This document shows, one piece after another, positions 7,030 through 62,377 of a stretch of DNA of 64,000 nucleotides; position 1 is the stretch's first letter; every line of letters starts with the position of its first letter. The notes beneath the pieces are model-generated. The model was not told the DNA's origin. It made no database searches and saw only the letters and a list, made by a program, of their open reading frames with translations. The stretch lies in the IMG/VR virus record IMGVR_UViG_3300044719_000152; one strand, given 5' to 3'. The DNA is from an uncultured virus (IMG/VR IMGVR_UViG_3300044719_000152) (lineage: Duplodnaviria; Heunggongvirae; Uroviricota; Caudoviricetes). The position numbers and the translations under genes are program-made.

Positions 7030-8039
7030 GCGGCCAGACCACGATCGAGTGGACCGACGCCACGTGGAACCCCGTCACCGGCTGCACCGAGGTGTCGCCG
7101 GGCTGCGATCACTGCTACGCCAAGACGTTCGCCGAGCGCTGGCGCGGCGTGCCCGGCCACCACTTCGAGTACGGGTTCGACGTGCAGCTCCGCGAGGACA
7201 AGCTGAGTCTGCCGCTGAGGTGGCGGAAGCCCCGCAAGGTGTTCGTCAACAGCATGTCGGACCTGTTCCACGACTTCGTTCCGGATGACTACATCGCGCG
7301 AGTTTTCGCGGTGATGGCTGGAGCTCGCCAGCACACCTTCCAGGTCCTCACGAAGCGGCACGGAAGGATGCATTCCCTGCTCAACTCCCAGCGTTTCGTG
7401 GACAAGGTCCGCGTGTACTACTCCTGGGCCGACGACGACCCGAGCGTTGTCGACTACGAGAACGACCAACGCCCGGCGTTTTCGGTGTGGCCGCTTCCGA
7501 ATGTCTGGCTCGGTGTGTCGGTGGAGAGCCAGCAGTGGGCGGACATCCGGATCCCCGCGCTGCTGGGGACCCCGGCCGCCGTACGGTGGCTCTCTTGTGA
7601 GCCGCTGCTGGGGCCAGTCGACCTGGACGGCCCGGTCGTCAACGGCCACCGGCCGAAGCTGACGTACTGGCTCACCGGCCGCCCCGGCTGGGGGCAGGAG
7701 CACACCGGCTCGACTGGCGTGGTGATGCAAGAGCTCGTCACCGGACCGCGAATCGACTGGGTCGTGGTCGGTGGTGAATCCGGTCGTGGTGCACGGCCGA
7801 TGGATCCAAAGTGGGCGCACCGCCTGCGCGATCAGTGCCAGGCCGCCAACGTGCCGTTCCTGTTCAAACAGTGGGGCGAGTGGGCACCGCGCTGCACGCT
7901 CGGGCTGTGCGGGCAACGCTGCTCGTGCGCGGGTGCCAACGCGTCGCATCCGACCGAGATGCACCGCGTCGGCAAGAAGGCCGCCGGCCGTCTGCTGGGC
8001 GGCCTGACGTACGACGAGTACCCGGAGCGTGCCGCATGA
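7026..8039 (+). CDS. phage Gp37/Gp68 (DUF5131) family radical-SAM-like protein
   Basis: IEWTDATWNPVTGCTEVSPGCDHCYA (CxxxxxxCxxC), VFVNSMSDLFH, IDWVVVGGESG, FLFKQWG. Confidence 0.92.
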   Translation: MSGQTTIEWTDATWNPVTGCTEVSPGCDHCYAKTFAERWRGVPGHHFEYGFDVQLREDKLSLPLRWRKPRKVFVNSMSDLFHDFVPDDYIARVFAVMAGARQHTFQVLTKRHGRMHSLLNSQRFVDKVRVYYSWADDDPSVVDYENDQRPAFSVWPLPNVWLGVSVESQQWADIRIPALLGTPAAVRWLSCEPLLGPVDLDGPVVNGHRPKLTYWLTGRPGWGQEHTGSTGVVMQELVTGPRIDWVVVGGESGRGARPMDPKWAHRLRDQCQAANVPFLFKQWGEWAPRCTLGLCGQRCSCAGANASHPTEMHRVGKKAAGRLLGGLTYDEYPERAA

Positions 8040-8383
8040 CCACGCCCGCGCCTGTCATCGGTGAACCCGAGCTGGATGCCATGCTCCCGGCCGCCGTCAA
8101 CCTCATCTGGGCCGTACGCACCGAAGACGCCGACGAGGTCGCCACAGCCCGGACCGACGCCCACAACGCCCGCCTCAACACCAAGCCGACCGACCGATCC
8201 GAAGTCGCCACGCTCCGCGCGCTCATCGTGCTCCTCGCTGGCCTCGTCCCGGACGACCGCAGCCCGCAGCAACTCCTCCGCTGGCTGCGGAACCCCCAGG
8301 CGTACCGGCAGTTGCGTAACGACGGCTACGACGCCGACACCGCCGGCAGCATCGCCGCCGCACGCACCGGGGAGGCGGCGTGA
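8036..8383 (+). CDS. hypothetical protein
   Basis: coupled ORF. Confidence 0.65.
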   Translation: MTTPAPVIGEPELDAMLPAAVNLIWAVRTEDADEVATARTDAHNARLNTKPTDRSEVATLRALIVLLAGLVPDDRSPQQLLRWLRNPQAYRQLRNDGYDADTAGSIAAARTGEAA

Positions 8384-8577
8384 CCGCGATCCTCGAAGCC
8401 CTGCAAGCGTTCAGCTCGGCTGTCGTGCAACTGCTGTGGCACCTGTTCGGCATCCTCCCGCCCGACCCCAACACCGGCCGGCACCGGCTGGCCGCCGTGC
8501 CCGCACACCAGGGCTACGCCGACCACCCCGAATTGCTCACCGAACTCGTCTTGGTTCGAGGGAGGCACGCAGCATGA
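8380..8577 (+). CDS. hypothetical protein
   Basis: coupled 65-aa ORF with GGAGG RBS. Confidence 0.5.
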   Translation: MTAILEALQAFSSAVVQLLWHLFGILPPDPNTGRHRLAAVPAHQGYADHPELLTELVLVRGRHAA

Positions 8578-9389
8578 AGCCCCCGTTCGCCTACTTCGGC
8601 GGAAAGACGATGCTCGCCGACCGGATCGTCAACCTGCTACCCGCGCACGAGCACTACGTCGAGCCGTTCGCAGGGTCCCTCGCGGTGCTGCTGGCTAAGC
8701 CGCGCTCCCGGATGGAGACCGTCAACGACCTCGACGGCGACCTAGTCCTGTTCTGGCGGATGCTCCGCGACCACCCCGACGAACTGATCCGTGCGTGCGC
8801 ACTGACACCGCACGCTCGGGTCGAACACCTCGAGGCCTACGCGCTTGACGATGCGCCGGACGAGCTCGAGCGCGCCCGGCGCGTGTGGGTGCTGCTGACA
8901 CAGGGCCGCAGTGGACAGATGCGCCCGACCGGCTGGCGGCACTACGTCGACCCGGCGGGATCGGTCACCTCGATGCCCGGCTACCTCGAGGCCTATGTGG
9001 CCCGCATGGGTCCTGGGGTGGCGCGGTTGGCCGGGGTTTCGCTCGAGTGCCAGCCAGCACTCGACCTGATCGAGCGGTACGGACGTTCGCCGAACGTGCT
9101 GCTGTACGTTGACCCGCCGTACCTCGGTAGCACGCGGGTTTCGGGTGGCTACCGGCACGAGATGCGCAGCGAGGCTGAGCATCGGGAACTGGCAGCCGTG
9201 CTCAAGAGATGCCGGGCTGCGGTTGTCCTCTCTGGCTACGCCTCGCCGCTGTACGGCGAGCTTTACGGGGGCTGGTGGTCCACAAGCATCGACACGACCA
9301 CAGGGCAGGGGGGCACCCGGCAGGAACGTACGGAGTGGCTGTGGAGCAACCGAATGCCGCAGCCCGATCTGTTCGGCGGTGCGGCATGA
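8574..9389 (+). CDS. DNA adenine methyltransferase (Dam/D12 class)
   Basis: YFGGK, YVEPFAGS, VNDLDG, catalytic YVDPPY. Confidence 0.93.
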   Translation: MKPPFAYFGGKTMLADRIVNLLPAHEHYVEPFAGSLAVLLAKPRSRMETVNDLDGDLVLFWRMLRDHPDELIRACALTPHARVEHLEAYALDDAPDELERARRVWVLLTQGRSGQMRPTGWRHYVDPAGSVTSMPGYLEAYVARMGPGVARLAGVSLECQPALDLIERYGRSPNVLLYVDPPYLGSTRVSGGYRHEMRSEAEHRELAAVLKRCRAAVVLSGYASPLYGELYGGWWSTSIDTTTGQGGTRQERTEWLWSNRMPQPDLFGGAA

Positions 9390-18868: not shown

Positions 18869-19539
18869 TGACGCCCCGCCTGTTCGCGCTCGGCCGCCGG
18901 AAGCAGCGCGCCAAGCTGGCCGCCATCGCCGACGCTGCTCGCTACTACGACCGGCCAGCCGATTGCGACGGATCGGATTGCTTCCACGACGACGACGTGT
19001 GCGTGAACCTGGAGACCCGCTACGCCACCACCGAGGACGCGCTCGCGGCAGCGCGGGTGCCGAGGTTGGAGGCGGATGTTGATCGCCTGCTGAAGAGGAC
19101 GGCGAAGCTCGGCGACCTGGAGCTGGCCATCGGCGAGGCGCTCGGCCTGTCGGCTAGTGCGGGCACCGACGACCTGATCGCCGCAGTCGGTCGGCTCAAG
19201 AAGCTGGGCGAGGCGAACGGCCTGAATGCCCGCTTCTGGGCGGACCACTTCGACGAGGTACAGAAGGCCAACCGGCAGGCACTCGGCGAACACCACAAGC
19301 CCGGCCACACCGTGGCGGAGCTCATCACCGCGCTCGTCGGTCAAGTCGACCAGTACCGCGAGTTGCTCGGCTCGATCTGGCTGTACATCAGCTGGCGCTC
19401 AGTTACCCGACACCTCACCACCGAGCAGCGGGAACTGTGGGCGGAAGCGGTCGAGTCGTCCGGTGACCCGGACGAGCGGATCGCCGCGGACCGGTGGTGG
19501 CGCGACGACGCGCCGGCTGAGACGGGAGGCGCGGAGTGA
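18868..19539 (+). CDS. hypothetical phage protein
   Basis: TGATG coupling, high GC3. Confidence 0.65.
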   Translation: MTPRLFALGRRKQRAKLAAIADAARYYDRPADCDGSDCFHDDDVCVNLETRYATTEDALAAARVPRLEADVDRLLKRTAKLGDLELAIGEALGLSASAGTDDLIAAVGRLKKLGEANGLNARFWADHFDEVQKANRQALGEHHKPGHTVAELITALVGQVDQYRELLGSIWLYISWRSVTRHLTTEQRELWAEAVESSGDPDERIAADRWWRDDAPAETGGAE

Positions 19540-19832
19540 AGATCGGACCACGCACCGCGAAGCTCCTCCGCGAGGCCATCCTGCTCGCGCACGTCCACGG
19601 CTCTTGTTGGGGCCAAGCCAATCCCCGGCAGCTCGGCGGCGACGACGACTATCCGAAGGACTCCGAGGTTGTCAGGCAGGTACTGGTCTCGGCAACCCGA
19701 AACGCGGACAAGTTCCCCACGCTGGCGAAGCTCGATGTGGCGCAAGAGGCCGACGCCCGGCACCGGCAGGCATTCACCGAGGAGATCAAGCAGTTGATGG
19801 CGCAGCGCGCCGAGCAGAACGGAGAGCGGTGA
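19536..19832 (+). CDS. hypothetical protein
   Basis: GGAGG RBS, coupled. Confidence 0.6.
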   Translation: MKIGPRTAKLLREAILLAHVHGSCWGQANPRQLGGDDDYPKDSEVVRQVLVSATRNADKFPTLAKLDVAQEADARHRQAFTEEIKQLMAQRAEQNGER

Positions 19833-20374
19833 TGGACTGGCGACACAGGGCGGCATGCCGCGACGAAGATCCCGAGTTGTTCCATCCGGTCGGCAGCAGC
19901 GGTCCGGCGCTCTTGCAGATCGCCGAGGCGAAGACCGTATGCCGTCGCTGCCCGGTGGTGTCGCTCTGTTTGACCGAGGCGCTCGGCATGAAGGACTGCT
20001 CGGGTGTCTGGGGCGGCATGTCCGAGGACGAGCGGGACGCGTTGAAGCGCCGGCAGGCCCGAACAAGGCAGCGTTCCCACGTCGTCGAGGAGCCTCCGGA
20101 GGAGCCGGAGCAGGCCACGCCGGTCCGGGTCGACGGCCGCCTGATGGCCGCGCCGGCAACCGTCCTGGGTCGCCTGTATCAGGAGCGCACGTCGGACCAG
20201 CGTCAGCACGCGCTGATGAGCAACGGCCGCTCGGCGTGCGGGTCGACCCGCCTGGACACGGATCGGCAGCGTCCAGTGGCGGAGTTGGGTGCGTCGCGGC
20301 GCTGCCGAACGAAGGCGTGCACTCGGCTGTTCACGGTCGCCGACCAGGAGCACCTGGTGTTCTCCCATGGCTGA
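19832..20374 (+). CDS. whiB: WhiB-family Fe-S transcription regulator (WhiB1-like) with C-terminal extension
   Basis: MDWRHRAACRDEDPELFHPVG...CRRCPV...C...GVWGGMSEDER; 4 conserved Cys and GVWGG turn. Confidence 0.92.
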   Translation: MDWRHRAACRDEDPELFHPVGSSGPALLQIAEAKTVCRRCPVVSLCLTEALGMKDCSGVWGGMSEDERDALKRRQARTRQRSHVVEEPPEEPEQATPVRVDGRLMAAPATVLGRLYQERTSDQRQHALMSNGRSACGSTRLDTDRQRPVAELGASRRCRTKACTRLFTVADQEHLVFSHG

Positions 20375-22915: not shown

Positions 22916-22984
22916 CTGTCCAGTTAGGAAACGGGAAACACCTTCCCCGGCAACCAGTCCACACCCGACACTGAGGTGCAACCC

Positions 22985-23359
22985 ATGACCGCCAGCACCG
23001 TGTGCGCGTTCTGCGAGATCGTCGCCGGCCGCGCACCCGCCACCTTCGACCGCACGTGGCCCGACGCCATCGCCATCCGGCCGCGGCGAGGAGGGGTCAA
23101 CGACTCCCACGTCCTCGTCATCCCCACCGTCCACGTCGCCGACGCCGGCGAGAACCCCGCCGTCACCGCCGCCGTCATGGCCCGGGCCGCCGAACTCGTC
23201 TCCGAGCGGCAAGCCGCCAACATCATCACCAGCAAGGGCGTGGCCGCCACCCAGAGTGTGTTCCATCTCCACGTGCACGTCATCACCCGCACCGACGGCG
23301 ACGGGCTGCCGCTGCCGTGGACACCCCAGCAGACCAAGGAGGAGACCCGCCGTGGGTGA
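22985..23359 (+). CDS. HIT-family nucleotide hydrolase
   Basis: CAFC, HVLVIP..H, QSVFHLHVHVI histidine triad. Confidence 0.9.
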   Translation: MTASTVCAFCEIVAGRAPATFDRTWPDAIAIRPRRGGVNDSHVLVIPTVHVADAGENPAVTAAVMARAAELVSERQAANIITSKGVAATQSVFHLHVHVITRTDGDGLPLPWTPQQTKEETRRG

Positions 23360-23867
23360 GATCCAACTCGTCATGGCCCGCGAGCCCATCCCTGACGGGC
23401 CCAGTGTGTTTCTCGCTGGCCCCAGCCCGGAACGCGGCTCGGGTGTGCCGTCGTGGCGGCCGGACGCAGCCGCAGCCCTCGCCGCCACGTGGCTCGGGGA
23501 CGAGCCGCTGGCGGTGCTGTCGCCGGAGAGCCGCGGTGGCGTGCGGGCGGCCCGCTACGAGGACCAGACGGACTGGGAGATGGCGGCCCGTTACCGGGCG
23601 GCCGTGGTCCTGTTCTGGATCCCGCGGGACGTGCGCCTGATGCCCGGCTTCACGACCAACGTCGAGTTCGGCTACGACGTCGCCGCCCGCCGGCAGGTCG
23701 TGCTGGGCTGCCCGCCGGACTGTCCGAACCCGGAGCGCAACCGCTACCTCATACGGGTGGCTCAGCTCCACGCCGTCCCGGTCTGCACCACGCTCCCGCA
23801 GACCGTTTCCGCCGCCATCAACCTCATCCACGCCACCGAGCACCAACCATCCACTGAGGAGTGCTGA
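23352..23867 (+). CDS. nucleoside 2-deoxyribosyltransferase-like protein
   Basis: SVFLAGP...SWR...YEDQTDWE...VLFWIPR...GFTTNVEFG. Confidence 0.8.
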   Translation: MGEIQLVMAREPIPDGPSVFLAGPSPERGSGVPSWRPDAAAALAATWLGDEPLAVLSPESRGGVRAARYEDQTDWEMAARYRAAVVLFWIPRDVRLMPGFTTNVEFGYDVAARRQVVLGCPPDCPNPERNRYLIRVAQLHAVPVCTTLPQTVSAAINLIHATEHQPSTEEC

Positions 23868-34234: not shown

Positions 34235-35191
34235 TCAGGACAGGCCCTTGGTCGCCATCCACGTGCGCACCGCGGTCACGGCGCGGTGGTTGTCGCCGAC
34301 GTGGTGCTCCCTCAGCCACGGCCGGAGAGCAGCGACCAGAGCCTGGTCAGCAGGGTCCACAACCGGCGGCGCAGGGACGGGCGTCGGACCGGGGGTGGGC
34401 TGGACGGGAAACGGATTGGGCTTCCCCGTCAACACGGCGAAGTCCTCACCCAACCCATGCAGGTCGACCCCTTCCGGGCTGTGGCCGGTCGCGTCCAGCC
34501 ACTCCGGCGCGACGACGACCCACGCCTCCTCGACGTACTGCGCCCACCACGCGTCGGCCACGTCCTGCGTCCGCGCCCACGTCACCACCCGCACGGTCTC
34601 GCCCGGCGTGCTGTAGTAGCCGACCGGCACCGCGTGACCGCCGTCGATCCCGCCGTCCGGGGCGACCACCGTCCAGGGCTGGCCGGCGTTGAACTGGTCC
34701 ATCGCCGAGTTCGGCAGGTTCACCCCGAGGCACAGGGCGCCGAACACGTTGATCGCCGCGTCCACCTCGGACTGGTTGTGGATGTCGACCTCGGCGTAGG
34801 CCAGGATCTTGTGCCCGGCGATGCCCACCTTCAGCCAGTAGGCCAGCGCGTCCTGGATGACGGTGCCGTTGTCGGTGCTCGGGTCGGACGGGTCGAATCC
34901 GGTGACCGCCGTGTAGCCGTCGAGCAGCGCCTGCTCCGGCACGGTGACGGTGCTGCCGCCGCCGTACGTGGAGAACGCCTCGATCAGGTGTCCGATCATC
35001 GCCCACACGCAGTCGCCGTACTGGTCGTTGCCGTACATCGGCCACGACCCGACCCGCGAGAGCCAGTCCACCACCGCGGGGTTCGGGGGCACCGCCGTGT
35101 TCAGGTGCGGCGCGAGCTTGAGCCGCGGCTTGCTCGGGTCGTTCGGGAGCCGGCCGAGTCGCCCGGCCCGCTGCGGTTCCATCGCCGTCAT
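34235..35191 (-). CDS. papain-like cysteine peptidase in lysis cassette (possible second endolysin)
   Basis: GNDQYGDCVWA (Cys), GGHAVPVGYY (His), VVTW. Confidence 0.75.
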   Translation of the reverse strand: MTAMEPQRAGRLGRLPNDPSKPRLKLAPHLNTAVPPNPAVVDWLSRVGSWPMYGNDQYGDCVWAMIGHLIEAFSTYGGGSTVTVPEQALLDGYTAVTGFDPSDPSTDNGTVIQDALAYWLKVGIAGHKILAYAEVDIHNQSEVDAAINVFGALCLGVNLPNSAMDQFNAGQPWTVVAPDGGIDGGHAVPVGYYSTPGETVRVVTWARTQDVADAWWAQYVEEAWVVVAPEWLDATGHSPEGVDLHGLGEDFAVLTGKPNPFPVQPTPGPTPVPAPPVVDPADQALVAALRPWLREHHVGDNHRAVTAVRTWMATKGLS

Positions 35192-50317: not shown

Positions 50318-51072
50318 CAGCCACCACCCCACGATCCGTAACCCGCCGGCGACCACACCTCGTAGAAGTCGTTGCCGGCCGAATCGGGGTCGGGCGAGAT
50401 CGGGGTCATGCCGTCCTGGAACGGCGACCGGATGTGCACCGACCGGGTGCGCAGCCACGACACGCGGGACAGTGCCTTCCGCGCGAGAGGCGCGATCAGC
50501 AGCGTCTCCTCCTTGAGGCCGATCGACTTCCGGCCCTCGGAGATCATCGTGACGTCGAGGCGCGTGAACAGGTCCGGCTGCCCGGCCAGCCACACCGCCT
50601 CGTAGGCGACGGCCCGCTTCATCCACTCGGCGTCCCGCGAGCCGGTGTTGGCGTGGGCCAGGGCATAGGTGCGGCGCGCGAACATCTCGATGATGGCGTT
50701 GGCCTCCGCCAGCGCCTGCGGCGTGACCGTGATGCCGGTAAGTGCGAGGACGTCGCCGATCTGCGCCCACGTTCCGGTGCTCGCGGCCAGCACTGTCACG
50801 ACCTCCGACGCCGTGACAGGGTTGCTGTTGTAGGTGGCGTTCCACACCGCGACGTGGTCGCCGAGCACCGCGGAGGCCGGAACCGCCCACGTGTACTGGT
50901 AGACGCCGGTGGTGACGTGCACGATGCCGCTCGAGGTGGTGGCCACGTCGACCGTGCTGTCCGGCGCGGTGATGCCGATCGTCAGCCCGGACACGTCCAC
51001 GGCCGGGCCGCCGGCGTAGGCGTACCACTGTGCGGTGAGGGTGATCGACTGGCCCTGCGCTACCTGGGTCAT
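50317..51072 (-). CDS. head-tail adaptor with N-terminal Ig-like domain
   Basis: TGVYQYTW beta domain fused to WAQIGDVLALTG...KRAVAYEA...IAPLARKAL. Confidence 0.7.
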   Translation of the reverse strand: MTQVAQGQSITLTAQWYAYAGGPAVDVSGLTIGITAPDSTVDVATTSSGIVHVTTGVYQYTWAVPASAVLGDHVAVWNATYNSNPVTASEVVTVLAASTGTWAQIGDVLALTGITVTPQALAEANAIIEMFARRTYALAHANTGSRDAEWMKRAVAYEAVWLAGQPDLFTRLDVTMISEGRKSIGLKEETLLIAPLARKALSRVSWLRTRSVHIRSPFQDGMTPISPDPDSAGNDFYEVWSPAGYGSWGGG

Positions 51073-52346
51073 GCCGCACCCACTAGCGGGATGTAGCCCG
51101 TCGCGGTGCCGACGGTGGCCGGGTTGAAGCTGGCCGGCAACGCCGACTGGCCGTTGAGGTAGAAGGCCCGGCGGTTGCCCGAGTTCGAGATACCGAAGGC
51201 CAGCCACGGGGCGTTGAGGTCGTTCGCACCGAGGGCGTACGGCACGCTGACGCCGGTGAACCCGCCGCAGAGGTAAAGGATGTAGACCCACCGGCCGGCG
51301 CCCTGCGCGGGGACGGTGGTAATGGGGCGGCTGGCCCAGCCGGCGGTGGTCCACAGTGTCGAGTCGTCAGTCGTGGCCTGGACCAGTGCACCGGTGTCGT
51401 CGTAGAGCCCCAGGCGGTTGGGCACGGAGGACGTCGAGTAGGTGCCACCGGTGCGGATGGCGACCGCGAGGTTGTTGAGCGCATCGCCCGCCGGCACCCA
51501 GCAGCGGGCGCCGAAGATGGTTCCGGACGCCAAGGTGCTGATGTTCTGGAACAGCGCGGGGTTATCCGACGCAGTGAGCAAGCCGTACCCGGCGAGGGGA
51601 AACACTCCGCCGGGGGTGCTGCTGCCACCGCCGGATGCCGCGGCCCACTTGACGCCGGCGGCCTGGGTGGAGTCGGCGGTGAGCACCTGGCCGTCCGAGC
51701 CGACGCCGAGCCGAGCGATCGCGGCCGCGGCCGTCGCGACGAGGAGGTCGCCCTTGGCCGTGGCGGTCGACGCCTGCACGGCACCGGTGATCCGGCTGTC
51801 GTTGCCCTGCGCCGCGGTCCCGCTCACGGTGCCGTAGACGACGGCGAGCGTCCGGTCCGCGCTCAGGTCACCGCCGCCGGACAGTCCGGTGCCGGCGCTG
51901 ATGAGGCGGCTTGTCGGCGCCTTGTTGGCCAGGGCGGGCACGGTCGGGGACGCCGCTGTGCCGCCCAGGTCGCCGGCAAGCTGCACGATGCCCTTGGCCG
52001 CGTTGGTGGCGTCGGTCGCCGAAAGCGTGCGATCGGCGGTGAGGTCGCCGCCGCCGGCGAGCCCTGTGCCAGTGAGGATCTGGCGGGACGTGCCGACCTT
52101 CGTGGCGAGGGCGGGCACCGTCGGAGCAGCGGCCGTTCCCGCCAGGTCACCGGCCAGCTGCACCTTGCCCTTGGAGGTGGTCGTCGCGTCCGGCACTCCG
52201 GCGAGCGCAGTGTTGTCGACGTACTGCTTGTCCGCGGCCTGCAACGCTGCGGTCGGGTCGGCGGCCAGCATGAGCGCGCCGGTCATCGTGTCCCCGGCCT
52301 TCGAGACCTTGGTCGGGTCTCCGCCGACGTACCCGGTCGCTGCCAT
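51069..52346 (-). CDS. fibre-repeat protein in head module (head/neck fibre)
   Basis: two DAT...KG.VQLAGDL.GTAA.PTVP and GTGL.GGGDL.ADRTL repeats. Confidence 0.7.
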   Translation of the reverse strand: MAATGYVGGDPTKVSKAGDTMTGALMLAADPTAALQAADKQYVDNTALAGVPDATTTSKGKVQLAGDLAGTAAAPTVPALATKVGTSRQILTGTGLAGGGDLTADRTLSATDATNAAKGIVQLAGDLGGTAASPTVPALANKAPTSRLISAGTGLSGGGDLSADRTLAVVYGTVSGTAAQGNDSRITGAVQASTATAKGDLLVATAAAAIARLGVGSDGQVLTADSTQAAGVKWAAASGGGSSTPGGVFPLAGYGLLTASDNPALFQNISTLASGTIFGARCWVPAGDALNNLAVAIRTGGTYSTSSVPNRLGLYDDTGALVQATTDDSTLWTTAGWASRPITTVPAQGAGRWVYILYLCGGFTGVSVPYALGANDLNAPWLAFGISNSGNRRAFYLNGQSALPASFNPATVGTATGYIPLVGAA

Positions 52347-52947: not shown

Positions 52948-54006
52948 TCAGCTGCCGGAGTTGTCTTCCAGCACGGAGAAGGCGTTCTCGTGGCCGACGG
53001 CGAACGCGCGCCGAGCACGCATCTTGAGGATCGACTCGTCGGTCAAGGCGGCCAATCCATTCCTCCCGTCAATGAAGACGGACTCGGGTCCACTGCGGAC
53101 ACCGAGCAGCAGGAACTCCTTCGAGCAGATGACCAGCAGCGGGTTGCCGGTCGGCGTCGCCGTCGGCGCTGCCGAGGTGCGGGCACCCAGCGTCCACTTG
53201 ACCGGGTAGCCGAACAGCATGTCCGGGGTGGACGCCTGGCCGCCACCGGGGAAGCCGCCGCTGGACTCCTGGAAGATCGGCCGGCCGTTGAGGTCCTTGA
53301 TGCCGCGCAACTTCCTCTTGAACGTCGGGTGCGCGAGCACGAGGGCCTGCTCCTCGTCCCAGTAGTCGCCGGTTTCGACCAGGCCGACCGTGGTGGACAG
53401 CAGGTCGTAGGTGGTGCCACCCGAACCGGTCTTGGTCAGGTTCGTGTTGGCCTGGTAGCCGGTCGCCGAGTCGGTCTGGGTGAGCGTGTAGTAGAGCGAG
53501 TCGAACGCGCAGCCGGAGGTCGCCTTCGCCGCGGTGACGCCCAAGCAGGCGTTGTCGAGGCCCTTGGCGTAGGCCGTGGCCCAGTCGGACAGCTTGGTGT
53601 TGACCACGTCCGCCAGGCTGTCGTCGATGTCCTCCTCGGCGATCCGCACGGCCTTGCCGAACTTCTGGACGCTCAGGATGACCTGGTCGTTGGTCGACTG
53701 GTCCTCGCCGTACGTCCCGCCCTTGGCGACGATGTCGATGCCGACACCGCCGGACCGCGGGGTCGAGCGCGTGGCGGTCTTCATCGGGACGCGCTGGCCG
53801 TAGGACTCGATCGCGGAGACCTGCTTGACCTTCTGGATGACGTCGGAGCCGAACTCCTCCCAGACCCAGGCGTCGAAGTTGTTGCGGGCGCTGCCACCGA
53901 GGGCGCGGATCGGCTCGCCGTTGCGGCGGTAGCCGAGGATGTCGCCGACGTCGTGCGCCGGAACGGACTCGTCGAACAGGTCGAGGTCGAACTGGGATGC
54001 AGACAC
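52948..54006 (-). CDS. major capsid protein (HK97 fold)
   Basis: KFGKAVRIAEEDIDDS, LRGIKDLNGRPIF, LFGYPV, LKMRARRAFAV...AFSVL; GGAAGG RBS before GTG. Confidence 0.92.
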   Translation of the reverse strand: MSASQFDLDLFDESVPAHDVGDILGYRRNGEPIRALGGSARNNFDAWVWEEFGSDVIQKVKQVSAIESYGQRVPMKTATRSTPRSGGVGIDIVAKGGTYGEDQSTNDQVILSVQKFGKAVRIAEEDIDDSLADVVNTKLSDWATAYAKGLDNACLGVTAAKATSGCAFDSLYYTLTQTDSATGYQANTNLTKTGSGGTTYDLLSTTVGLVETGDYWDEEQALVLAHPTFKRKLRGIKDLNGRPIFQESSGGFPGGGQASTPDMLFGYPVKWTLGARTSAAPTATPTGNPLLVICSKEFLLLGVRSGPESVFIDGRNGLAALTDESILKMRARRAFAVGHENAFSVLEDNSGS

Positions 54007-54144
54007 GGCGCGTGCCCTTCCGAGTGATGGGTGCGGTGGTGTCCTGCGCCCCATCACGGGCACGTCAGGGCATTTGAATTGCCCGATCGCCGGTCCTAGC
54101 GGGCCGTCCCATCCGGGTGGCCTGCTGTCTCGGAGAATACACGC

Positions 54145-54178
54145 GAAAGCGCCCGACACGGATAGTGTGGGCGCTTTC
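54145..54178 (-). terminator. hairpin between scaffold and capsid genes
   Basis: GAAAGCGCCC-G-ACAC-GGATA-GTGT-GGGCGCTTTC. Confidence 0.6.
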
Positions 54179-54225
54179 TAGGCGCGTTTCCCCTATTCGT
54201 TTTCACACGGTTTAGGGAATTGCGT

Positions 54226-55008
54226 CTACCGCATCGAGTTGTGGATCTGCGCGGCGATCCGTTCCCCCGTCGTCTTGAACTGCGCGGGCGCGGGCTGCTT
54301 GTTCCCGGCGTCGATCCGCGGCGCGCGGCGGCGCTCCGGCTTGGCCGGCTCCGGCTCGGCGTCCTTGCCGAACAGCTCGGGGAACTCGTCGACCAGGTCG
54401 TCGATCTGGTCCTCGAGGCCGTCGACCTTCCCGGTCTCGGTGTCGACGTCGAGCTCGTCCATGTCCAGGCGCCGGATCATGCGGTTCAGGCGCTGCTCGG
54501 TGGGGTTGCGGAAGTCCGCCTTCATCAGCGCGGCGATCGCGGCCGACCGGATGGCAACCGGCTTGAACTTCTGCTCGGCGGCCTCCAGTGCGGCCTGCTC
54601 CCGCGCCGCGGCGTCCTCGTCGCCGGCCTGGCCGCCGCCCTGCTCGGCGGCGCGAGTGGACTTGCGGAGCTCGCGGACGCGGAGCCGGTGCTTCTTGGCC
54701 TCGGCGTTCGCCTCGGTGAGGGCCTTCTGGGTCTTCTCCCACTCCTCGCGGGTGGGCGGCTTCCACTCGTCGCCCTTGGCCTTGTCGGCGCCGTCGTCGT
54801 GCTCGTCCTCCTCGTCTTCGTCGTCTTCGTCGTCGAGGATGTCCCGGCCGCCGCCGCTGCCCTGCGAGCCGCCGCCCTCCAGGTCGATCTCGGGGCCGTC
54901 GTCGTCATCGTCGGCGCCGCCGAGCGCCGGCCAGACGGGCGTGCCGTCGGAGAGCAGCCCGATGGCGGGCAGGAGCGTGTCCGGGTGGATGGGCAGGTCG
55001 AGCAGCAT
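54226..55008 (-). CDS. capsid scaffolding protein
   Basis: acidic N-region, ALTEANAEAKKHR coiled coil, FPELF; AAAGGA RBS. Confidence 0.85.
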   Translation of the reverse strand: MLLDLPIHPDTLLPAIGLLSDGTPVWPALGGADDDDDGPEIDLEGGGSQGSGGGRDILDDEDDEDEEDEHDDGADKAKGDEWKPPTREEWEKTQKALTEANAEAKKHRLRVRELRKSTRAAEQGGGQAGDEDAAAREQAALEAAEQKFKPVAIRSAAIAALMKADFRNPTEQRLNRMIRRLDMDELDVDTETGKVDGLEDQIDDLVDEFPELFGKDAEPEPAKPERRRAPRIDAGNKQPAPAQFKTTGERIAAQIHNSMR

Positions 55009-55025: not shown

Positions 55026-56105
55026 TCATGATCGGGCCTTGCGGGGGAAGTCGTTGAACCGGCCGCGGCGGACCGCGGTGCGGGCACGGGCCTGCACGGA
55101 CTTCGGCAGGGTCGTGCCGCGGGCGAGCAGCCGAGACGCGGCGCGGAGCCTGGCCGGCTGGGACTCGGACGCCATGCGCCAGCCGGTGAGGATGCTGCGC
55201 TCGGCCTCCCGGCGAAGCGCGGCCGGCAGGTCGGGGCCGGTGTAGCCGGGCACGCTGCCCAGCCACACCGTGATCCGGCACCGGCAGTGCGGATGCAGCG
55301 GGCATCCGGGCAGGAACATCGGGTCCGGCCACGGCACCAGCGGCTTGTCGCCGAACGTCAGCCCGACCGGGAAGCCCTGGCCAGCTCTCGCGACGTGCCC
55401 GGAGTAGGCGAGGCAGTGCACGCACGCGTCCCGCTCCGCGACCCACAGCCGCTCGGCGTCGAGCTGGTCAGCGACCGCGGCGACGCCGTCGTTGACGGCC
55501 TTGTTCGTGGCCCATGTTGCGGTCGCCTCGGTCGCGGTCGCTGCCTGCTGCGCCGGCGACAGTGCGGTGGCCAGCTCGGCGAAGTTGTTGCCGGCGATGC
55601 GCGTGACGGCGGTTTCGGCGTCGGCGAGCTTGCCGGCGACGGTGGCGTCCACGGCGCGGATCGCGTCCACGGTGGCCTGGTCGAGGTCGGCCGCTGGCCA
55701 CTCGAAACGAGCCGCGCGGCGGCCGGTCGCCGGCAGGACGTGCTCGACGGCTCCTTCGGTGGCGTGGAGGTGCAGTTCGTCCACGGCCTGCCGCACACCG
55801 AGGTCGATGGCCTGCTCCGCGTACCGAGTCAGTTCGTCGGCCGGGGTGAACCGGATGTCGGCGAGGTGGTTGCGTGTCTCGGTGGCGATGTCGTGCAGCG
55901 TGATCGGGTCGGCCGGCTCGTCGACCCGGCCAACCTTCCGCACCCACAAGGCGGAGAGCGTGCGCGTGAGCGCCTTCAGCTTGGCGCGTAGTGGCGCCGC
56001 GACACCGCGGGCCGCCCGCTCGAGGGCCAGCGCCTCGGCGGCGTGCTCCAGCACCAGCTGCAGCGTCGGCTGGTTCGGGGTTTGTGGCGGCTGCGGGGCG
56101 GTCAC
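55026..56105 (-). CDS. minor head protein (MuF/gp7-like)
   Basis: WVAERDACVHC...PLHPHCRC. Confidence 0.8.
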   Translation of the reverse strand: MTAPQPPQTPNQPTLQLVLEHAAEALALERAARGVAAPLRAKLKALTRTLSALWVRKVGRVDEPADPITLHDIATETRNHLADIRFTPADELTRYAEQAIDLGVRQAVDELHLHATEGAVEHVLPATGRRAARFEWPAADLDQATVDAIRAVDATVAGKLADAETAVTRIAGNNFAELATALSPAQQAATATEATATWATNKAVNDGVAAVADQLDAERLWVAERDACVHCLAYSGHVARAGQGFPVGLTFGDKPLVPWPDPMFLPGCPLHPHCRCRITVWLGSVPGYTGPDLPAALRREAERSILTGWRMASESQPARLRAASRLLARGTTLPKSVQARARTAVRRGRFNDFPRKARS

Positions 56106-57760
56106 GCTGTGCCCGTGTCAGGGCCCATGAGCTCGGGCTCGCCGATGATCGAGCTGATCAGCTCCTGCACCTGGCCCTCGTCGACGATGCCGGTCGAGGC
56201 CGCGGCCGAGAGGCCCTGCAACGCGACGGCGATCTCCGAGAGCAGGTGCACGCGGAACGGCAGGTCGTCGTCGTTGTCGCCGAACCACTCGTCGGTCTGG
56301 TCCTTGGTGTAGCCGGCCTCCTGGAACGCCTGCGCCGGCGGGACACCGGCGTCGAGCTTGGCCTGGACGGTCTGCCAGCCGGTGAGGTCGTCCACGCTGG
56401 CCGGGGACTTCCAGTGCACGGTGACCTTGGGGTCGGGGACGCCGGTGATGCGCAGGGCGAACTCGAAGATCTCCCGCCAGGTCGCGCCGAAGGACAGCTG
56501 GCGGTTCACGATCTTCTTGACGAACGGCCCCTCGGCGGTGCGCAGGGACTCGCCGGACGGGGCGTCGCCACTGGGGTCGAAGTAGTGGAACGGGGTGACG
56601 CACAGCTGGGCCATGGCCCGCAGGTAGACCTGGAGCGGGCCCATGAACGTCTCGGGGTTGGCCTCGGCGAACTGGCCGACCTCGGTGACGCCCTGCATGT
56701 ACCAGAGCGAGCCGGGGTCGCTGGTCAGTTGGGACTGCGGGTCGGATGGCCGGCTGGTGGCGCCGGTGTCGAGGGCGAAGCTGAACTCGTCCTCGTCGGA
56801 GTTGACGGCGTCGGCGGTGTCGGTGTCCGGCGCGGTGAGCGCGTACCGCTGGGGGAAGGCTTGGTAGTCGACGCCAGCCATGTGGCTGAGGATCAGCTTG
56901 TGGATCGCGTCCTGCGGGCCGAACGCGGACAGGTGCTCCGGCTTGCCGTACGGCCGGCTGGCCGCGCGGAAGTGAAAGACGGGGACCTCGTTGAACGGAT
57001 TTACGAGCGGCCACTCGTCACCCGGGTTGTCCCGGTACGGGTGCATGTCGCCGGCCTCGACGTTGGTGACGCCCTCCTTGGAGATGAACCGCTCGATCCG
57101 GTCCGGGTAGTACAGGTCGATGCGGACCTGCTGGGTGTTGTTCAAGATCCATTTCTTGACCGCGTACCGCTTCCGCAATGGGCGCTCGGGGTCGTAGAAG
57201 ACCCGGCAGCAGTGCGGGCTGTTGTAGAAGATGTCGACGTTGAGGAACCCGTCGGCGTCGGTGTCGAGCAACTGGGGCGAGCCGTCGCCCTCGAAGTCGT
57301 CGGCGCCGTCCGGGGCGGTGGGCCAGACGATGACGTAGGCGTCGCCGTACTCGCACGCCTTGAGCATGATGTGCGGGGCCTCGAGGTCGAGCTGGTTGTC
57401 CCGCCACATGTCCTCGATGCGGGCGTTGCTGTTCTCGTCGGTCGCGGAGACGGCGTTTATCTCCAGGCGGTCGACGACAGCGTCCACGGGGGTCTTGGCG
57501 AAGTTGAACCGGAACCCCACACCGGTGCGGGCCATGGCGCGGCGGAGCCGGATCGAGGCGAAGAACTCGGGGACGGTGCCCTCGTAGTAGTTCTCGGCGC
57601 GCTGGTAGAGCACCGCGGAGGTGGTGAGGGATTCGATCGCGTTCTGCAGGTCCGAGGGCGATGATGGGCGCCATACGCCGTAGGCAGAATCCGACATGAG
57701 GGTAGGGGTGGCCGCGACGCCCATGGTGGCCTGATCGGTCAACGCGAGGTTCTTGTCCAC
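56102..57760 (-). CDS. portal protein (SPP1 gp6-like)
   Basis: NYYEG, NFAKTPVDAVVDRL, AFPQRY, PSGESLR. Confidence 0.92.
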   Translation of the reverse strand: MDKNLALTDQATMGVAATPTLMSDSAYGVWRPSSPSDLQNAIESLTTSAVLYQRAENYYEGTVPEFFASIRLRRAMARTGVGFRFNFAKTPVDAVVDRLEINAVSATDENSNARIEDMWRDNQLDLEAPHIMLKACEYGDAYVIVWPTAPDGADDFEGDGSPQLLDTDADGFLNVDIFYNSPHCCRVFYDPERPLRKRYAVKKWILNNTQQVRIDLYYPDRIERFISKEGVTNVEAGDMHPYRDNPGDEWPLVNPFNEVPVFHFRAASRPYGKPEHLSAFGPQDAIHKLILSHMAGVDYQAFPQRYALTAPDTDTADAVNSDEDEFSFALDTGATSRPSDPQSQLTSDPGSLWYMQGVTEVGQFAEANPETFMGPLQVYLRAMAQLCVTPFHYFDPSGDAPSGESLRTAEGPFVKKIVNRQLSFGATWREIFEFALRITGVPDPKVTVHWKSPASVDDLTGWQTVQAKLDAGVPPAQAFQEAGYTKDQTDEWFGDNDDDLPFRVHLLSEIAVALQGLSAAASTGIVDEGQVQELISSIIGEPELMGPDTGTA

Positions 57761-57879: not shown

Positions 57880-59484
57880 TCAAGAGGCGATGTCATCGGC
57901 ATCGAACCCAGCCGGCGGCAGCACGGTGACCTTCGACTTCTTGCCCGGCTTGAGGAACATGTCGATGCCGGTGCCAATCGCATCCACCAGGTCGTCATGC
58001 GCGCCCTTGGGGAAGCCGACCATCTGCTCCTCGGCCTGCGTCAGCGGACGCTCGTGTACGACGTACGGCAGCCCGTCCGGCCGGCGGCGCTGGTACCAGT
58101 TCAGGGCGCGGGCGGCCCGGACCTCCTTGGCCTCGCCCTGGTGCACCGGTTTGATCGGCAGCGGGAGTCCCTTGAGGACGCTGTCCCGCCAGACTTGGCC
58201 GCCCTGGTTCGTCTCGACCACCACGCCGCGCGTCTCCGGGAACTCCTCCAGCACCTCCAGCACCCACTTGCGGAGCGGCTCGCCGGGCTGGACGCGCCGG
58301 GCGTGGGCGTAGCGGACGACGACCCGCCGGTGGTGCGCCGAGTAGGCAACGACGGCCAGCGCGGTGAAGTCGCTCTTGCCCTTGTCGGTGACCGCCGGGT
58401 CAATCGACAGCAGCTGGTGCGTGAGTGCAGGCACGGTGGCGTGGACGAAGTCCTCTTCGCGCCAGTACTCACCGTCCCGACCCATGGGGTCGTTGGCGTA
58501 GTTCTTCTTGTAGGCGCGGGTGTGCCGGATCGATTCGAGGTAGGCCAGTGGCCACTTCGCCGGCCACAGGCTCCGCTCGGCGCCAGTCTCGTCGTCGCGG
58601 ACGATCGCCGGGTAGTAGTGGACTCGCCAGTGCTCGTCGGCAATCCACGGCGGGTGTTCCTCGCCGGGCTTGGTGACGGTCTTGACCAAGTCGTGCACGA
58701 TGGAGCCCGGCATGGTGACGGTGCCGACCAGGACCACGCGGGCATAGACGTTGAGCGGCAGGATCGCGTCGAGCAGTGTGGAGAGCCGCTTCTCCTTGAG
58801 ATATGGCGAGTAGTTCGACTCGTCGGGCTCGACGTCGTCCAGCACGATCAGGTCTGGCCGCCGCTCAGCGACCTTCATGCCGAGGGCGGCGCCGTCGACA
58901 CCGCGGGCGGCGAACACGAACCCGGACTTGGTGATCAGCATGCCGCGGTTGTCGGACTCGGTGCTTCCGCGCGGCCGGCGGGCCGGCGTGCACAGCTGGG
59001 GGAAGTCCAGCGCCAGCAACGCGTTCTGGTCGAGCTCGCGCTTGAACGTCTGGAGGTGCAACTCGGCCTGCGTGGCGGAGTGTGCAAAGGCGGCGCAGAA
59101 CCGGCGGTGCCCATGCGCCGCGGACCAGAGGGGCAGCACGAGGAAGAACCAGGTGCTCTTACCGACGCCGCGGGGGCCGACGTAGGTATCCCGGTCCTCC
59201 GCCGGGTTGTCGGATGGGAGCGCCCACTTCTTCGCCTCGACGACGACGTCCAGGTGGAACTCGCTGAACGTGATGCGCTCGCCGGTCTCCTTACCCCGCA
59301 GGTGGTGCGGCAGATACAGCAAGGCGAACAAGAGCGGGTCGTACTTGGTGAGGAGCCGCCGGCACTCGGCGATCTCCAGCATCCGCGGGTCGAACTGCGC
59401 GAGGTACGCGTCCAGGTTGAAGCCGACCCCCGACGCCGGGTCTGCCGGGTCGGGGGTCGGCTCGTGATCCTGGACAGCGGTCAC
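57880..59484 (-). CDS. terminase large subunit
   Basis: GPRGVGKST, RPDLIVLDDVE, SIDPA...SDFTA, HDDLVDA. Confidence 0.92.
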   Translation of the reverse strand: MTAVQDHEPTPDPADPASGVGFNLDAYLAQFDPRMLEIAECRRLLTKYDPLLFALLYLPHHLRGKETGERITFSEFHLDVVVEAKKWALPSDNPAEDRDTYVGPRGVGKSTWFFLVLPLWSAAHGHRRFCAAFAHSATQAELHLQTFKRELDQNALLALDFPQLCTPARRPRGSTESDNRGMLITKSGFVFAARGVDGAALGMKVAERRPDLIVLDDVEPDESNYSPYLKEKRLSTLLDAILPLNVYARVVLVGTVTMPGSIVHDLVKTVTKPGEEHPPWIADEHWRVHYYPAIVRDDETGAERSLWPAKWPLAYLESIRHTRAYKKNYANDPMGRDGEYWREEDFVHATVPALTHQLLSIDPAVTDKGKSDFTALAVVAYSAHHRRVVVRYAHARRVQPGEPLRKWVLEVLEEFPETRGVVVETNQGGQVWRDSVLKGLPLPIKPVHQGEAKEVRAARALNWYQRRRPDGLPYVVHERPLTQAEEQMVGFPKGAHDDLVDAIGTGIDMFLKPGKKSKVTVLPPAGFDADDIAS

Positions 59485-59994: not shown

Positions 59995-60705
59995 CTATCC
60001 AACCCACCGCCACGGCACCGGGTCTGGTCGGAGCGCCGCGTTCAGCGCGTCGTGGTGGACCACGACGGCCGTCCCAGGTGGTACGAGCGGGCTGTACCGG
60101 ATCGGCAGGTCGGGCATCGCGCCGACGGCGACGCGCGTCATCACGGCGGGACCGTCGGCCGCTCGGCAGTAGAGGGCGCGGCCGGTCAGCTCGGTCGGCT
60201 CATGCCGTGCCTGCTGCATGTGGGCAACGGCGACGCGCGCTGCGTCTGCGATGTGCCGCTCCAGCTCGCTCGCCGGCGCGACCGCCGCAGGCATGGCCAG
60301 CGGGGAGAAGTCGAGCACCTCGACGGGCTCCTCCTCGACGTTCCCCGCGGTGATCCGGTACGACCGCACCTCGGGCTCGTCGGCGCGGAGCGAGACGATG
60401 ACGTAGTGCGCGTCCGGTTCGGCGGCGTACCGCACATCCGGCGCGGACGGGTACGCCTCGGTGGCCGGGTGGGAGTGGTAGATGACCACCGGTTGCTCGC
60501 CGCGCCGGTCCATGTCGAGCCACACGGCGAGCTGCTCGCCGGGGTCCATCTCGTAGCGGCTGCGGGACTGGGCGGCGTTGCGCATGGGGACGTGCCGCTC
60601 GGCGAGCCCATCCCGGCCGGCGAGCACGCCGCACGCTTCGAGGGGTGCTTCGGCGCGGCAGTGGGCGACCATGGCGTCCAGGAGGTCACGGCGTAGGCGC
60701 AGCAC
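59995..60705 (-). CDS. Mov34/JAB (JAMM) metallopeptidase, Mec-like, with C-terminal extension
   Basis: EACGVLAG...IYHSHPATEAYPSAPD (E-x-HxH-x10-D); GGAGG RBS before GTG 60705. Confidence 0.9.
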   Translation of the reverse strand: MLRLRRDLLDAMVAHCRAEAPLEACGVLAGRDGLAERHVPMRNAAQSRSRYEMDPGEQLAVWLDMDRRGEQPVVIYHSHPATEAYPSAPDVRYAAEPDAHYVIVSLRADEPEVRSYRITAGNVEEEPVEVLDFSPLAMPAAVAPASELERHIADAARVAVAHMQQARHEPTELTGRALYCRAADGPAVMTRVAVGAMPDLPIRYSPLVPPGTAVVVHHDALNAALRPDPVPWRWVG

Positions 60706-60889
60706 TGGGTGCCTCCGGTTCATCCAGGGCGGCGCGCAGGCCGTCGATGATGTACTGCACGGAGCCCGACGCGCGGTGCTCCTCGTCGTGCTCCAGCGAC
60801 GTGATCGCCTCGCGGATCGCGGCGCCGAGCCGGTCGACGCGGCGGCCGAGGATCCGGGCCAGCGCGGTCGAGGTGGCCGAGGCGCTCAT
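60686..60889 (-). CDS. hypothetical protein
   Basis: coupled ORF. Confidence 0.55.
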   Translation of the reverse strand: MSASATSTALARILGRRVDRLGAAIREAITSLEHDEEHRASGSVQYIIDGLRAALDEPEAPSAAPTP

Positions 60890-61556: not shown

Positions 61557-61848
61557 CAGTCGGCTCCTTCGGCTTGGCGTCCTTCAACTCCGCGTCCGCC
61601 CACCGGCCCCAGAACTCCGCCTGCGCCTGGGCTATCGCCATCTGGAAGTCGAGCTCGGCCGTGGCCGCCGCCTTCACGGCTTCCTCGATGGCCTGCACCG
61701 TCCGGCACGGCCACGTCTGCGGGTTCTCGCCAGCGCACTCCGCGCAGCTGCCGTACTCCTCGTGATGCAGCCGCAGCACCGCCGCCGCGACAGGGTTCGC
61801 ACTCGACACGCGGGCCAGTTCCACCACGCGGTCCCAGTCAGCTGCCAT
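61549..61848 (-). CDS. hypothetical protein (H...CxxC...WPC zinc-like)
   Basis: LRLHH...CAEC...WPCRT. Confidence 0.6.
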   Translation of the reverse strand: MAADWDRVVELARVSSANPVAAAVLRLHHEEYGSCAECAGENPQTWPCRTVQAIEEAVKAAATAELDFQMAIAQAQAEFWGRWADAELKDAKPKEPTDG

Positions 61849-62377
61849 CGACGCCGCCCTTCAACCGGGCCTCGGCCAGCGCGGCGTCGGCCTTGGCCTT
61901 GTTCACCATGTCGATCAGTTCGAGGTCCTGCTGCGTCGTCTCCGTCAGCGTCGCGTCGACCTTCAGCGCGCCCTCCGTGCCGTGGAGGCGCATCATGCGA
62001 CCCACCAACGACTCGGCCCGGCCGATCGCCGCGAGCGTCACGCCGGGGTCCTCCAGCGGTGCACCGTCCGGGCCACGCACGACGCGGCCGTCCGACACGA
62101 GCGGGTGCGGTGTGCGGATGATCTCGACGGCCCGGTTGAACAGCCGCTCCAGGCGGTCGTGCTGGACGCGGCGGTACTGCTCGCGAAGCGGGTCGACGGT
62201 CTCCCGGATCTCGCACTCCAGGCGCCGGCTGACGGTGGTCTTGGACAGGCCGGTGAGCTCGGCGATCTCGCGGAGGTTGTGGCCGGCGAGGTACAGCTCG
62301 TAGCAGATGCGTTGTTCTTCGGCGAAGTGTGCGTTGGTGTAGCGGGGCTTGCGGTAGGGCTGGATTCCCCCGGCCAT
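61838..62377 (-). CDS. probable terminase small subunit (HTH)
   Basis: LAGHNLREIAELTGLSKTTVSRRL; AGGAGG RBS; near start of the late operon. Confidence 0.7.
   Translation of the reverse strand: MAGGIQPYRKPRYTNAHFAEEQRICYELYLAGHNLREIAELTGLSKTTVSRRLECEIRETVDPLREQYRRVQHDRLERLFNRAVEIIRTPHPLVSDGRVVRGPDGAPLEDPGVTLAAIGRAESLVGRMMRLHGTEGALKVDATLTETTQQDLELIDMVNKAKADAALAEARLKGGVDGS

What the first reader, a model, noticed from the sequence alone, without database searches (positions are those of the whole stretch)
53893..55008. Scaffold and major capsid share an N-terminal leader ending in ALGG; no prohead protease visible
Seen: scaffold begins ...PAIGLLSDGTPVWPALGG|A (54916-55008) and capsid begins ...DILGYRRNGEPIRALGG|S (53893-54006), consensus [IL]GxxxD/NGxP[IV]x(x)ALGG[AS]. 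Two otherwise unrelated proteins carry the same tag, and no HK97/ClpP-type protease is recognisable in the head module. Known analogy: Staphylococcus phage 80alpha scaffold and capsid share an N-terminal motif cleaved by host Prp. Inference: an equivalent actinobacterial maturation signal cut after Gly-Gly.
Basis: partly seen in the sequence, partly recalled or inferred. Interest (0 to 1): 0.82.

Follow-up and report, generated by a model that had tools for sequence, protein, structure and literature searches.

The report
Removable leaders on phage head proteins
In this actinobacterial phage the capsid and scaffold proteins start with the same short tag, which is probably cut off during head assembly by a ubiquitin-protease-type zinc enzyme carried by the phage or borrowed from the host; the cut is well supported by comparison, the cutter is unproven.

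Summary
Of 101 capsid loci, 43 carry the leader; 53 of 56 leaderless ones have a start codon exactly at position -1. A matrix built on these leaders ranks the mycobacteriophage Patience capsid leader first in 22 kb; its cryo-EM model begins at the next residue, and peptides of Patience gp21 (putative scaffold) begin right after a similar Gly-Gly. Such a gene occurs in 16 of 20 well-covered relatives with a leadered capsid and 0 of 27 without, but these give only 2-3 independent contrasts (not significant). All 21 hosts encode a chromosomal JAB; its partner CysO ends in AVAGG, like the leaders. Prp, HK97-type and C39_2 proteases were not found. Best reading: JAB-dependent head-protein processing, working like 80alpha/Prp with another enzyme class. 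No cleavage assay exists; ten literature searches found no description, though some GenBank records already label related JABs as maturation proteases.

The parts
54916..55008 (-). Scaffold N-terminal leader, 31 residues, ending Gly-Gly; predicted boundary before Ala32
54226..55008 (-). Scaffolding protein gene (260 aa)
   Evidence: PF06810 E 1.1e-11; phrog_4708 E 7e-15
53890..54006 (-). Capsid N-terminal leader, 39 residues, ending Gly-Gly-Ser; predicted boundary before Ala40; model shows a two-strand hairpin (residues 23-26, 32-34) and a low-confidence stretch 37-53
52948..54006 (-). Major capsid protein gene, HK97-type (352 aa)
   Evidence: PF05065 E 6.8e-18; TIGR01554 E 8.9e-21
59995..60723 (-). 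Mec-like JAB/JAMM metalloprotease gene; catalytic domain in the first ~135 residues with intact E...HSH-x7-S-x2-D, then a ~105-residue tail; candidate cutter
   Evidence: PF14464 E 6.2e-31; invariant E, H, S, H, S, D in 28 rows; 52-58% identical to host chromosomal JABs
57880..59484 (-). Terminase large subunit (context)
   Evidence: phrog_38 E 8.6e-68
56102..57760 (-). Portal protein (context)
   Evidence: phrog_104 E 4e-63
55026..56105 (-). MuF-like minor head protein (context)
   Evidence: phrog_241 E 8e-5; PF04233 weak, E 0.053
61838..62377 (-). HTH protein, probable small terminase; with TerL it brackets the JAB gene
   Evidence: weak hits phrog_1482 E 0.0018, PF20901 E 0.0027; inference

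Best explanation
Scaffold and capsid are made with a removable leader: a beta-hairpin followed by P-[IV]-x-x-hydrophobic-x-G-[GAS]. The leader is cut after position -1, giving a capsid that starts ARNNF and a scaffold that starts ADDDD (strongly inferred by comparison, not measured here). The cutter is a JAB/JAMM zinc protease (inferred): the phage's own Mec-like gene at 59995-60723, or, in relatives without one, the host's chromosomal Mec, because the last five leader residues resemble the C-terminus of the host sulfur carrier CysO. The uncut leader probably helps folding or co-assembly of scaffold and capsid, as in 80alpha (analogy only).
For: Boundary: 53 of 56 leaderless capsids have ATG/GTG exactly at -1, so Met removal gives the same N-terminus as the cut (loci are redundant). 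Leader profile: 234 proteins at E<=1e-3 among 1.84 billion; in the best 150 the single-stretch hits lie at N-termini, median boundary residue 30. Measured analogue: matrix without Patience ranks its capsid leader first of 30,249 windows (17.3 bits, next 6.2; leave-one-out range 13.5-39.7); cryo-EM model starts at Thr20, the next residue (PMC11965321); gp21 peptides start at residue 35 after Gly (PMC4324244), which is GG|T. Cutter: JAB in 16 of 20 well-covered records with a leadered capsid, 0 of 27 without; between scaffold and capsid in 9 of the 11 loci where it is within 10 kb; the only strong hit among 50,697 phage records is Dryad (E 4e-34), whose capsid has the leader; Patience gp19 is also Prok-JAB, seen only late in infection; six further Patience-like phages have a head-module JAB and matching short motifs on both proteins. 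Hosts: 21 of 21 have a chromosomal JAB; a CysO-like C-terminus ending AVAGG was found beside it in 10 of the 12 host loci examined, 8 of them with two extra residues; AVAGG scores in the top 7e-5 of 5-mers under the leader matrix. No ThiS-family partner in 34 records.
Against: No cleavage or binding was shown for this phage. The capsid tree has only 2-3 independent contrasts; sign test p 0.5. 4 of 16 well-covered viral records with a leadered capsid, plus Yara and Lizz, lack a JAB. 40 of 55 leaderless-capsid loci keep a scaffold leader with no phage JAB. Position -1 is A or S in 3 of 23 capsid and 9 of 36 scaffold leaders, including this capsid. 9 of 20 JAB-positive records carry it more than 10 kb away; in L001, L002, L028 it sits inside an 8-13 kb block of other genes. 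JAMMs normally recognise a folded beta-grasp domain (established knowledge), which the leader is not, and CysO lacks P(-8). The 2014 Patience paper placed the capsid cut at 82/83, not 19/20. Adjutor has SG instead of G[GAS] and its model starts at Asn28, two residues past the predicted site. Missing cryo-EM density can be disorder.
Confidence: 0.62

Rival explanations
1. The leader is cut at the same site, but by another protease (an unrecognised host peptidase, the MuF-like protein, or a C39-type double-glycine peptidase); the JAB gene is a passenger.
For: The pattern G(-2), G/A/S(-1), hydrophobic at -4 and -7 fits double-glycine leaders of C39 peptidases (recalled consensus). Leader-only phages exist in numbers. 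Co-occurrence with JAB is not phylogenetically significant. Some records label MuF-like genes 'capsid maturation protease'.
Against: No C39_2 (0 of 34 over cut-off), no S78 (0 of 34), no Prp (0 of 37); papain-like ORF matched only 3 of 34 records. JAB sits with leaders in three capsid lineages. Host C39 transporters (PF03412) were not searched.
Confidence: 0.18
2. The leader is not cut in this family: it is a docking hairpin that helps scaffold and capsid fold or assemble, and G-[GAS] is a flexible hinge.
For: The hairpin half alone recurs 3-9 times in large unrelated proteins without the Gly-Gly. Leaders are lost in relatives (15 scaffolds, 56 capsids). In 80alpha the scaffold leader is needed but its cleavage is not (PMC5744158).
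Against: Exact match of boundary and start codon; Patience peptides and model start right after the motif; conserved small residues on both sides of one bond.
Confidence: 0.1
3. The JAB has another job: removing ubiquitin-like tags that host defence systems attach to virion proteins, or recycling CysO as a metabolic aid; leaders are handled by host Mec alone or not at all.
For: Patchy presence (7 changes on the tree), variable position, Mec-like sequence; ubiquitin-like anti-phage conjugation exists (search listing).
Against: Never found with a leaderless capsid (0 of 56 loci); directly between scaffold and capsid in L038, L026, L047; constant head-module position in the 7 Patience-like phages examined.
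Confidence: 0.07
4. A Prp-like cysteine protease cuts three residues earlier (hydrophobic|AGG), as in the F|A site of 80alpha.
For: Some leaders contain FFA or WYA just before the glycines (Madi, Yara scaffold).
Against: No Prp in 37 genomes or records, control rings in B. subtilis; position -3 varies while G(-2) is fixed (partly by construction of the pattern); Patience data place the end after Gly.
Confidence: 0.03

Closest known systems
Staphylococcus phage 80alpha capsid and scaffold leaders cut by host Prp (PMC5744158, passages read)
   Same: Two unrelated head proteins share an N-terminal leader; it resembles a site in a host protein (L27 there, CysO here); no HK97-type protease.
   Different: Site is F|A, enzyme is the cysteine protease Prp; here G-[GAS]|A, no Prp found, candidate is a zinc JAB protease that many phages carry themselves.
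Mycobacteriophage Patience head module (gp19 'protease', gp21, gp23; PMC4324244, PMC11965321, PDB 8GIU)
   Same: Same motif register on capsid and putative scaffold, JAB gene among head genes, N-termini observed after Gly-Gly.
   Different: Capsid not detectably similar to this one by BLAST beyond the leader; JAB only 28% identical. In the passages read, neither paper notes a shared motif or names gp19 as JAB or as the cutter.
Mec / QbsD / CxnF JAMM peptidases that trim sulfur carriers after Gly-Gly (PMC5925218 passages; Mec-CysO biochemistry recalled, name 'Mec' assigned from the mec-cysO-cysM gene order)
   Same: Same family and catalytic motif; 52-58% identity to host copies; leader ends resemble the CysO end.
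   Different: Known substrates are folded beta-grasp proteins and the N-terminal part is the product; here the kept product is the C-terminal part, and no beta-grasp gene is in the phage.
HK97-type prohead protease (Peptidase_S78) with delta domain
   Same: N-terminal processing of the capsid during head maturation.
   Different: No S78 gene in 34 records; leader is 39 residues, scaffold is a separate gene.
Lambda gpK-type tail-tip JAB proteins
   Same: Phage JAB domain (phrog_30 E 1e-14).
   Different: Those hits are weak (E about 1e-4) and lie in tail modules; this gene lies between the terminase genes.

Membership tests
80alpha-type Prp-cleaved head leaders | Shared N-terminal motif on scaffold and capsid | tested here: met
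80alpha-type Prp-cleaved head leaders | F|A site matching ribosomal protein L27 extension | tested here: not met
   Consensus is G-[GAS]|A with no F before the site
80alpha-type Prp-cleaved head leaders | Prp (PF04327) in host or phage | tested here: not met
   0 of 37 over cut-off, one sub-threshold hit; control rings in 3 of 14
JAMM/MPN+ metalloprotease (gene 59995-60723) | Prok-JAB profile above cut-off | tested here: met
   107 bits vs 25
JAMM/MPN+ metalloprotease (gene 59995-60723) | E-xn-H-[ST]-H-x7-S-x2-D motif | tested here: met
   Invariant columns in 28 rows; motif as printed in PMC5925218
JAMM/MPN+ metalloprotease (gene 59995-60723) | Zinc-dependent cleavage after Gly-Gly | not testable with these tools
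   needs an assay
Mec (CysO-cysteine peptidase) system | Gene beside cysO and cysM | tested here: not met
   No ThiS-family gene in 34 phage records; host copies have cysO-like and cysM neighbours in 10 of 12 loci
JAB-associated Gly-Gly head leaders (Patience-like; undescribed) | Leader motif in the same register as Patience gp23 | tested here: met
JAB-associated Gly-Gly head leaders (Patience-like; undescribed) | JAB gene in or next to the head module | tested here: met
   two genes upstream of TerL
JAB-associated Gly-Gly head leaders (Patience-like; undescribed) | Mature proteins start after the motif | not testable with these tools
   only indirect:
HK97-type prohead protease system | Peptidase_S78 gene | tested here: not met
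   0 of 34 records; no hit in window ORFs
Double-glycine leader / C39 peptidase | C39-type peptidase in the phage | tested here: not met
   PF13529 0 of 34 over cut-off
Double-glycine leader / C39 peptidase | Host C39 transporter able to cut the leader | not tested
   PF03412 not searched in hosts

The most novel reading that the evidence does not exclude
Actinobacterial phages have turned the host's sulfur-carrier peptidase into a head-maturation enzyme: scaffold and capsid leaders mimic the CysO C-terminus, phages without their own gene depend on host Mec, and others have captured JAB genes more than once. This would be a deubiquitinase-class capsid maturation protease and a second case of host-protease mimicry, tying head assembly to cysteine metabolism and making mec a host factor for cultured Streptomyces phages.
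Probability: 0.4. Interest if true: 0.88.

Novelty: new variant of a known kind. Interest (0 to 1): 0.72.

Why it matters
Many actinophages have a scaffold and an HK97-fold capsid but no recognised prohead protease. If true, this names the enzyme class and site for a widespread group, explains two unexplained Patience observations (gp21 peptides from residue 35, capsid model from Thr20), adds JAB/JAMM to the proteases that mature virus heads, and gives a direct test with cultured phages: Dryad has the gene, its relatives Yara and Lizz do not.

Tried and rejected
No whole genome was held for the window, so host questions used the genomes behind loci. No complex prediction of JAB with leader was available; binding is untested. 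Leader profile against five host genomes: strong hits only in the prophages, no host protein with the full motif, so an L27-like host N-terminal extension was not found. Profile against PDB: only weak hits; 9lw6, a 543-aa capsid, shows the motif at residues 8-35, E 0.22. Capsid against PDB sequences: none. Papain-like ORF 34235-35191 as cutter: 3 of 34 records, two of them leaderless-capsid, rejected. Prp, S78, C39_2, ThiS. JAB tree: largely unresolved (16 of 29 branches open), so single versus repeated capture from Mec is not settled. Independent-pairs test not significant. JAB-side scan: 17 of 31 loci at 40% identity or more, 13 already in the capsid set (partly circular, the alignment held their JABs); of 4 new ones, 1 has both leaders and 3 are fragments without scaffold or capsid; a notebook entry giving 19/15 is a miscount. 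One search fetched an unrelated phage (MrGordo), which served as a negative control (best 4.8 bits). Papers PMC4351075, PMC7150772, PMC12908700 and bioRxiv 2022.09.09.507160 (passages) gave nothing on this motif. Earlier findings by place and sequence: none.

Full report
Setting. The window is a 69% G+C phage sequence; a 76 kb record with direct terminal repeats has a 100% identical capsid (L023). The late genes run on the - strand: probable small terminase, JAB gene (59995-60723), a 101-aa ORF, large terminase, portal, MuF-like, scaffold (54226-55008), capsid (52948-54006). The nearest genome-borne relatives are prophages of Pseudonocardiaceae and Actinocrinis, then Streptomycetaceae.

Observation. 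No in-frame start follows the motif until capsid Met75 and scaffold position 54525, so both leaders are translated.

Conservation and register. Among 101 capsid loci (many redundant), 43 capsids carry the leader (42 by pattern, L035 by eye), 56 do not, 2 were undetermined. All 39 leadered-capsid loci with a readable scaffold start have a scaffold leader (two called by eye); so do 40 of 55 leaderless-capsid loci. In 23 capsid and 36 scaffold non-redundant leaders the pattern is G(-10), P(-8), I/V(-7), hydrophobic(-4), G(-2), G/A/S(-1), then A or S (P and G(-2) are fixed by my pattern). In 53 of 56 leaderless capsids ATG or GTG sits exactly at -1, so initiator removal yields the N-terminus that a cut at this bond would give. 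The capsid model shows a hairpin at 23-34 and low confidence across the boundary (mean pLDDT 68). A profile of 39 leaders finds 234 proteins at E<=1e-3 among 1.84 billion; of the best 150, the single-stretch hits are N-terminal, mostly 200-300-aa proteins; of 72 hits scanned, 12 matched Phage_scaffold, 2 DUF4355 and 1 Phage_capsid, most had no family; the multi-stretch hits are repeats of the hairpin half.

Is it cut? Earlier notes of this scan pointed to Patience; I tested that lead. A matrix from 67 leaders without Patience ranks its capsid leader first in the first 22 kb (17.3 bits, next 6.2). PMC11965321 (passages) states the capsid model was trimmed to Thr20, the residue after the Gly-Gly, and that the N-arm ends between two helices. 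PMC4324244 (passages and Table S1) reports gp21 peptides starting at residue 35 after a glycine, which is GG|T; gp21 is abundant late and nearly absent from particles, as a scaffold would be. Against: the same paper put the capsid cut at 82/83, which conflicts with the later model, and Adjutor's model starts two residues past its SG motif. gp21 shares only the last seven positions and was not among the top matrix hits.

The cutter. The gene at 59995-60723 is an intact JAMM protein, 52-58% identical to the chromosomal JABs of the hosts. Searching whole records, a phage-borne copy occurs in 20 of 43 leadered-capsid loci and 0 of 56 leaderless ones; in well-covered records (21 prophages in genomes, 26 viral records at least 50% complete) 16 of 20 against 0 of 27. 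On a 56-row capsid tree (47 well-covered rows, 4 JAB-positive fragments, 5 cultured phages) the leader changes 3 times and the JAB 7 times, always within leadered clades, but 2-3 independent contrasts cannot reach significance (p 0.5). Independent lineages add weight: Dryad is the only strong hit among 50,697 phage records and has a leadered capsid; a contig with a 22.6% identical capsid has the leader and a JAB; Patience gp19 is Prok-JAB, with relatives in 98 records, and in six more of those that I read, putative scaffold and capsid both carry a matching short motif ending GG, GA, GS or (Adjutor) SG. Prp, S78, C39_2 and the papain-like ORF do not follow the leader, and no ThiS-family partner is encoded. 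No other peptidase family was hit in the window ORFs scanned.

Host link. All 21 host genomes have a chromosomal JAB. In 10 of 12 host loci examined a CysO-like C-terminus ending AVAGG and cysM lie beside it, 8 with two extra residues that need trimming. AVAGG is itself the end of 2 of 67 leaders, 28 of 67 end x-[IV]-A-G-G, and it scores in the top 7e-5 of background 5-mers. JAMM proteins trim such carriers after Gly-Gly (PMC5925218, passages) and one archaeal JAMM does not need the diglycine in linear fusions (PMC8832034, passages), which would allow GA and GS. The name Mec and its CysO-Cys activity are recalled. Phages without a JAB could thus use the host enzyme; this step is inference, and the full leader profile finds no host protein in five genomes.

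Mechanism, by status. Shown: shared translated leader, conserved register, intact JAB gene, co-occurrence counts. Strongly inferred: removal after position -1 (about 0.85). Inferred: JAB as cutter (about 0.7 given a cut), host Mec as substitute (about 0.5). By analogy only: the uncut leader aids folding or assembly, as in 80alpha, where the scaffold leader is required but cleavage is not (PMC5744158, passages).

Novelty. Ten searches (listings seen) found no paper describing this leader or a JAB head-maturation protease. The library lacks most subscription journals, bioRxiv supplements were closed, and only Table S1 of the eight Patience supplements was read, so peptide-level data may bear on the 82/83 question. 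Some GenBank records already call Patience-like JABs 'head maturation protease' or 'capsid maturation protease', without evidence shown there. Six earlier notes of this scan reach the same idea in other genomes; they are not independent support. It works like 80alpha/Prp but fails that family's tests: a new variant of a known kind. This window adds the start-codon coincidence, tolerance of A or S at -1 and the CysO resemblance. Interest 0.72.

Noticed in passing
window 34235-35191 (-): 318-aa ORF with a papain-like Cys/His pattern by eye and no Pfam hit; matched in 3 of 34 related records.
   Followed up: partly
P0003, P0018, P0019, P0033, P0037 and similar: The hairpin half of the leader recurs 3-9 times, without Gly-Gly, in 400-1900-aa proteins, most without a Pfam family; possibly a docking repeat of large-phage head proteins.
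   Followed up: no
L102:6636-7457, L103:7738-8622, L106:8241-9140: Scaffolds of Yara, Lizz and Dryad carry a different-looking leader ending in an aromatic-rich motif before GG (or SG in Dryad); P at -8 and GG fit the same register in Yara and Lizz.
   Followed up: partly
L001, L002, L028 (L143, L144): An 8-13 kb block of small genes, including the JAB, separates scaffold and capsid.
   Followed up: partly
L084, L086, L087; L006, L077: Streptomyces-type scaffolds lacking the leader; in L084/86/87 the first residues and the acidic stretch remain, as if the leader was deleted internally.
   Followed up: no
L123:953-1483 (record of L047): A 176-aa ORF that looks NlpC/P60- or YiiX-like by eye lies between scaffold and JAB.
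   Followed up: no
PDB 9lw6/9lw7/9lw8; P0127: Capsids of 543 and 474 aa with long N-terminal parts also begin with the motif, so the leader can precede a delta-domain-like region.
   Followed up: no
window 59995-60310 (-): The JAB has a ~105-residue C-terminal tail; L147 shares it, L023 has a different one.
   Followed up: no
window 51069-52340 (-): ORF after the capsid with DUF5907 repeats and tail-protein hits.
   Followed up: no
window 6993-8039, 8061-9386, 19226-20371, 22976-23867 (+): DUF5131, adenine methyltransferase, WhiB, HIT and nucleoside deoxyribosyltransferase-like genes in the early region.
   Followed up: no
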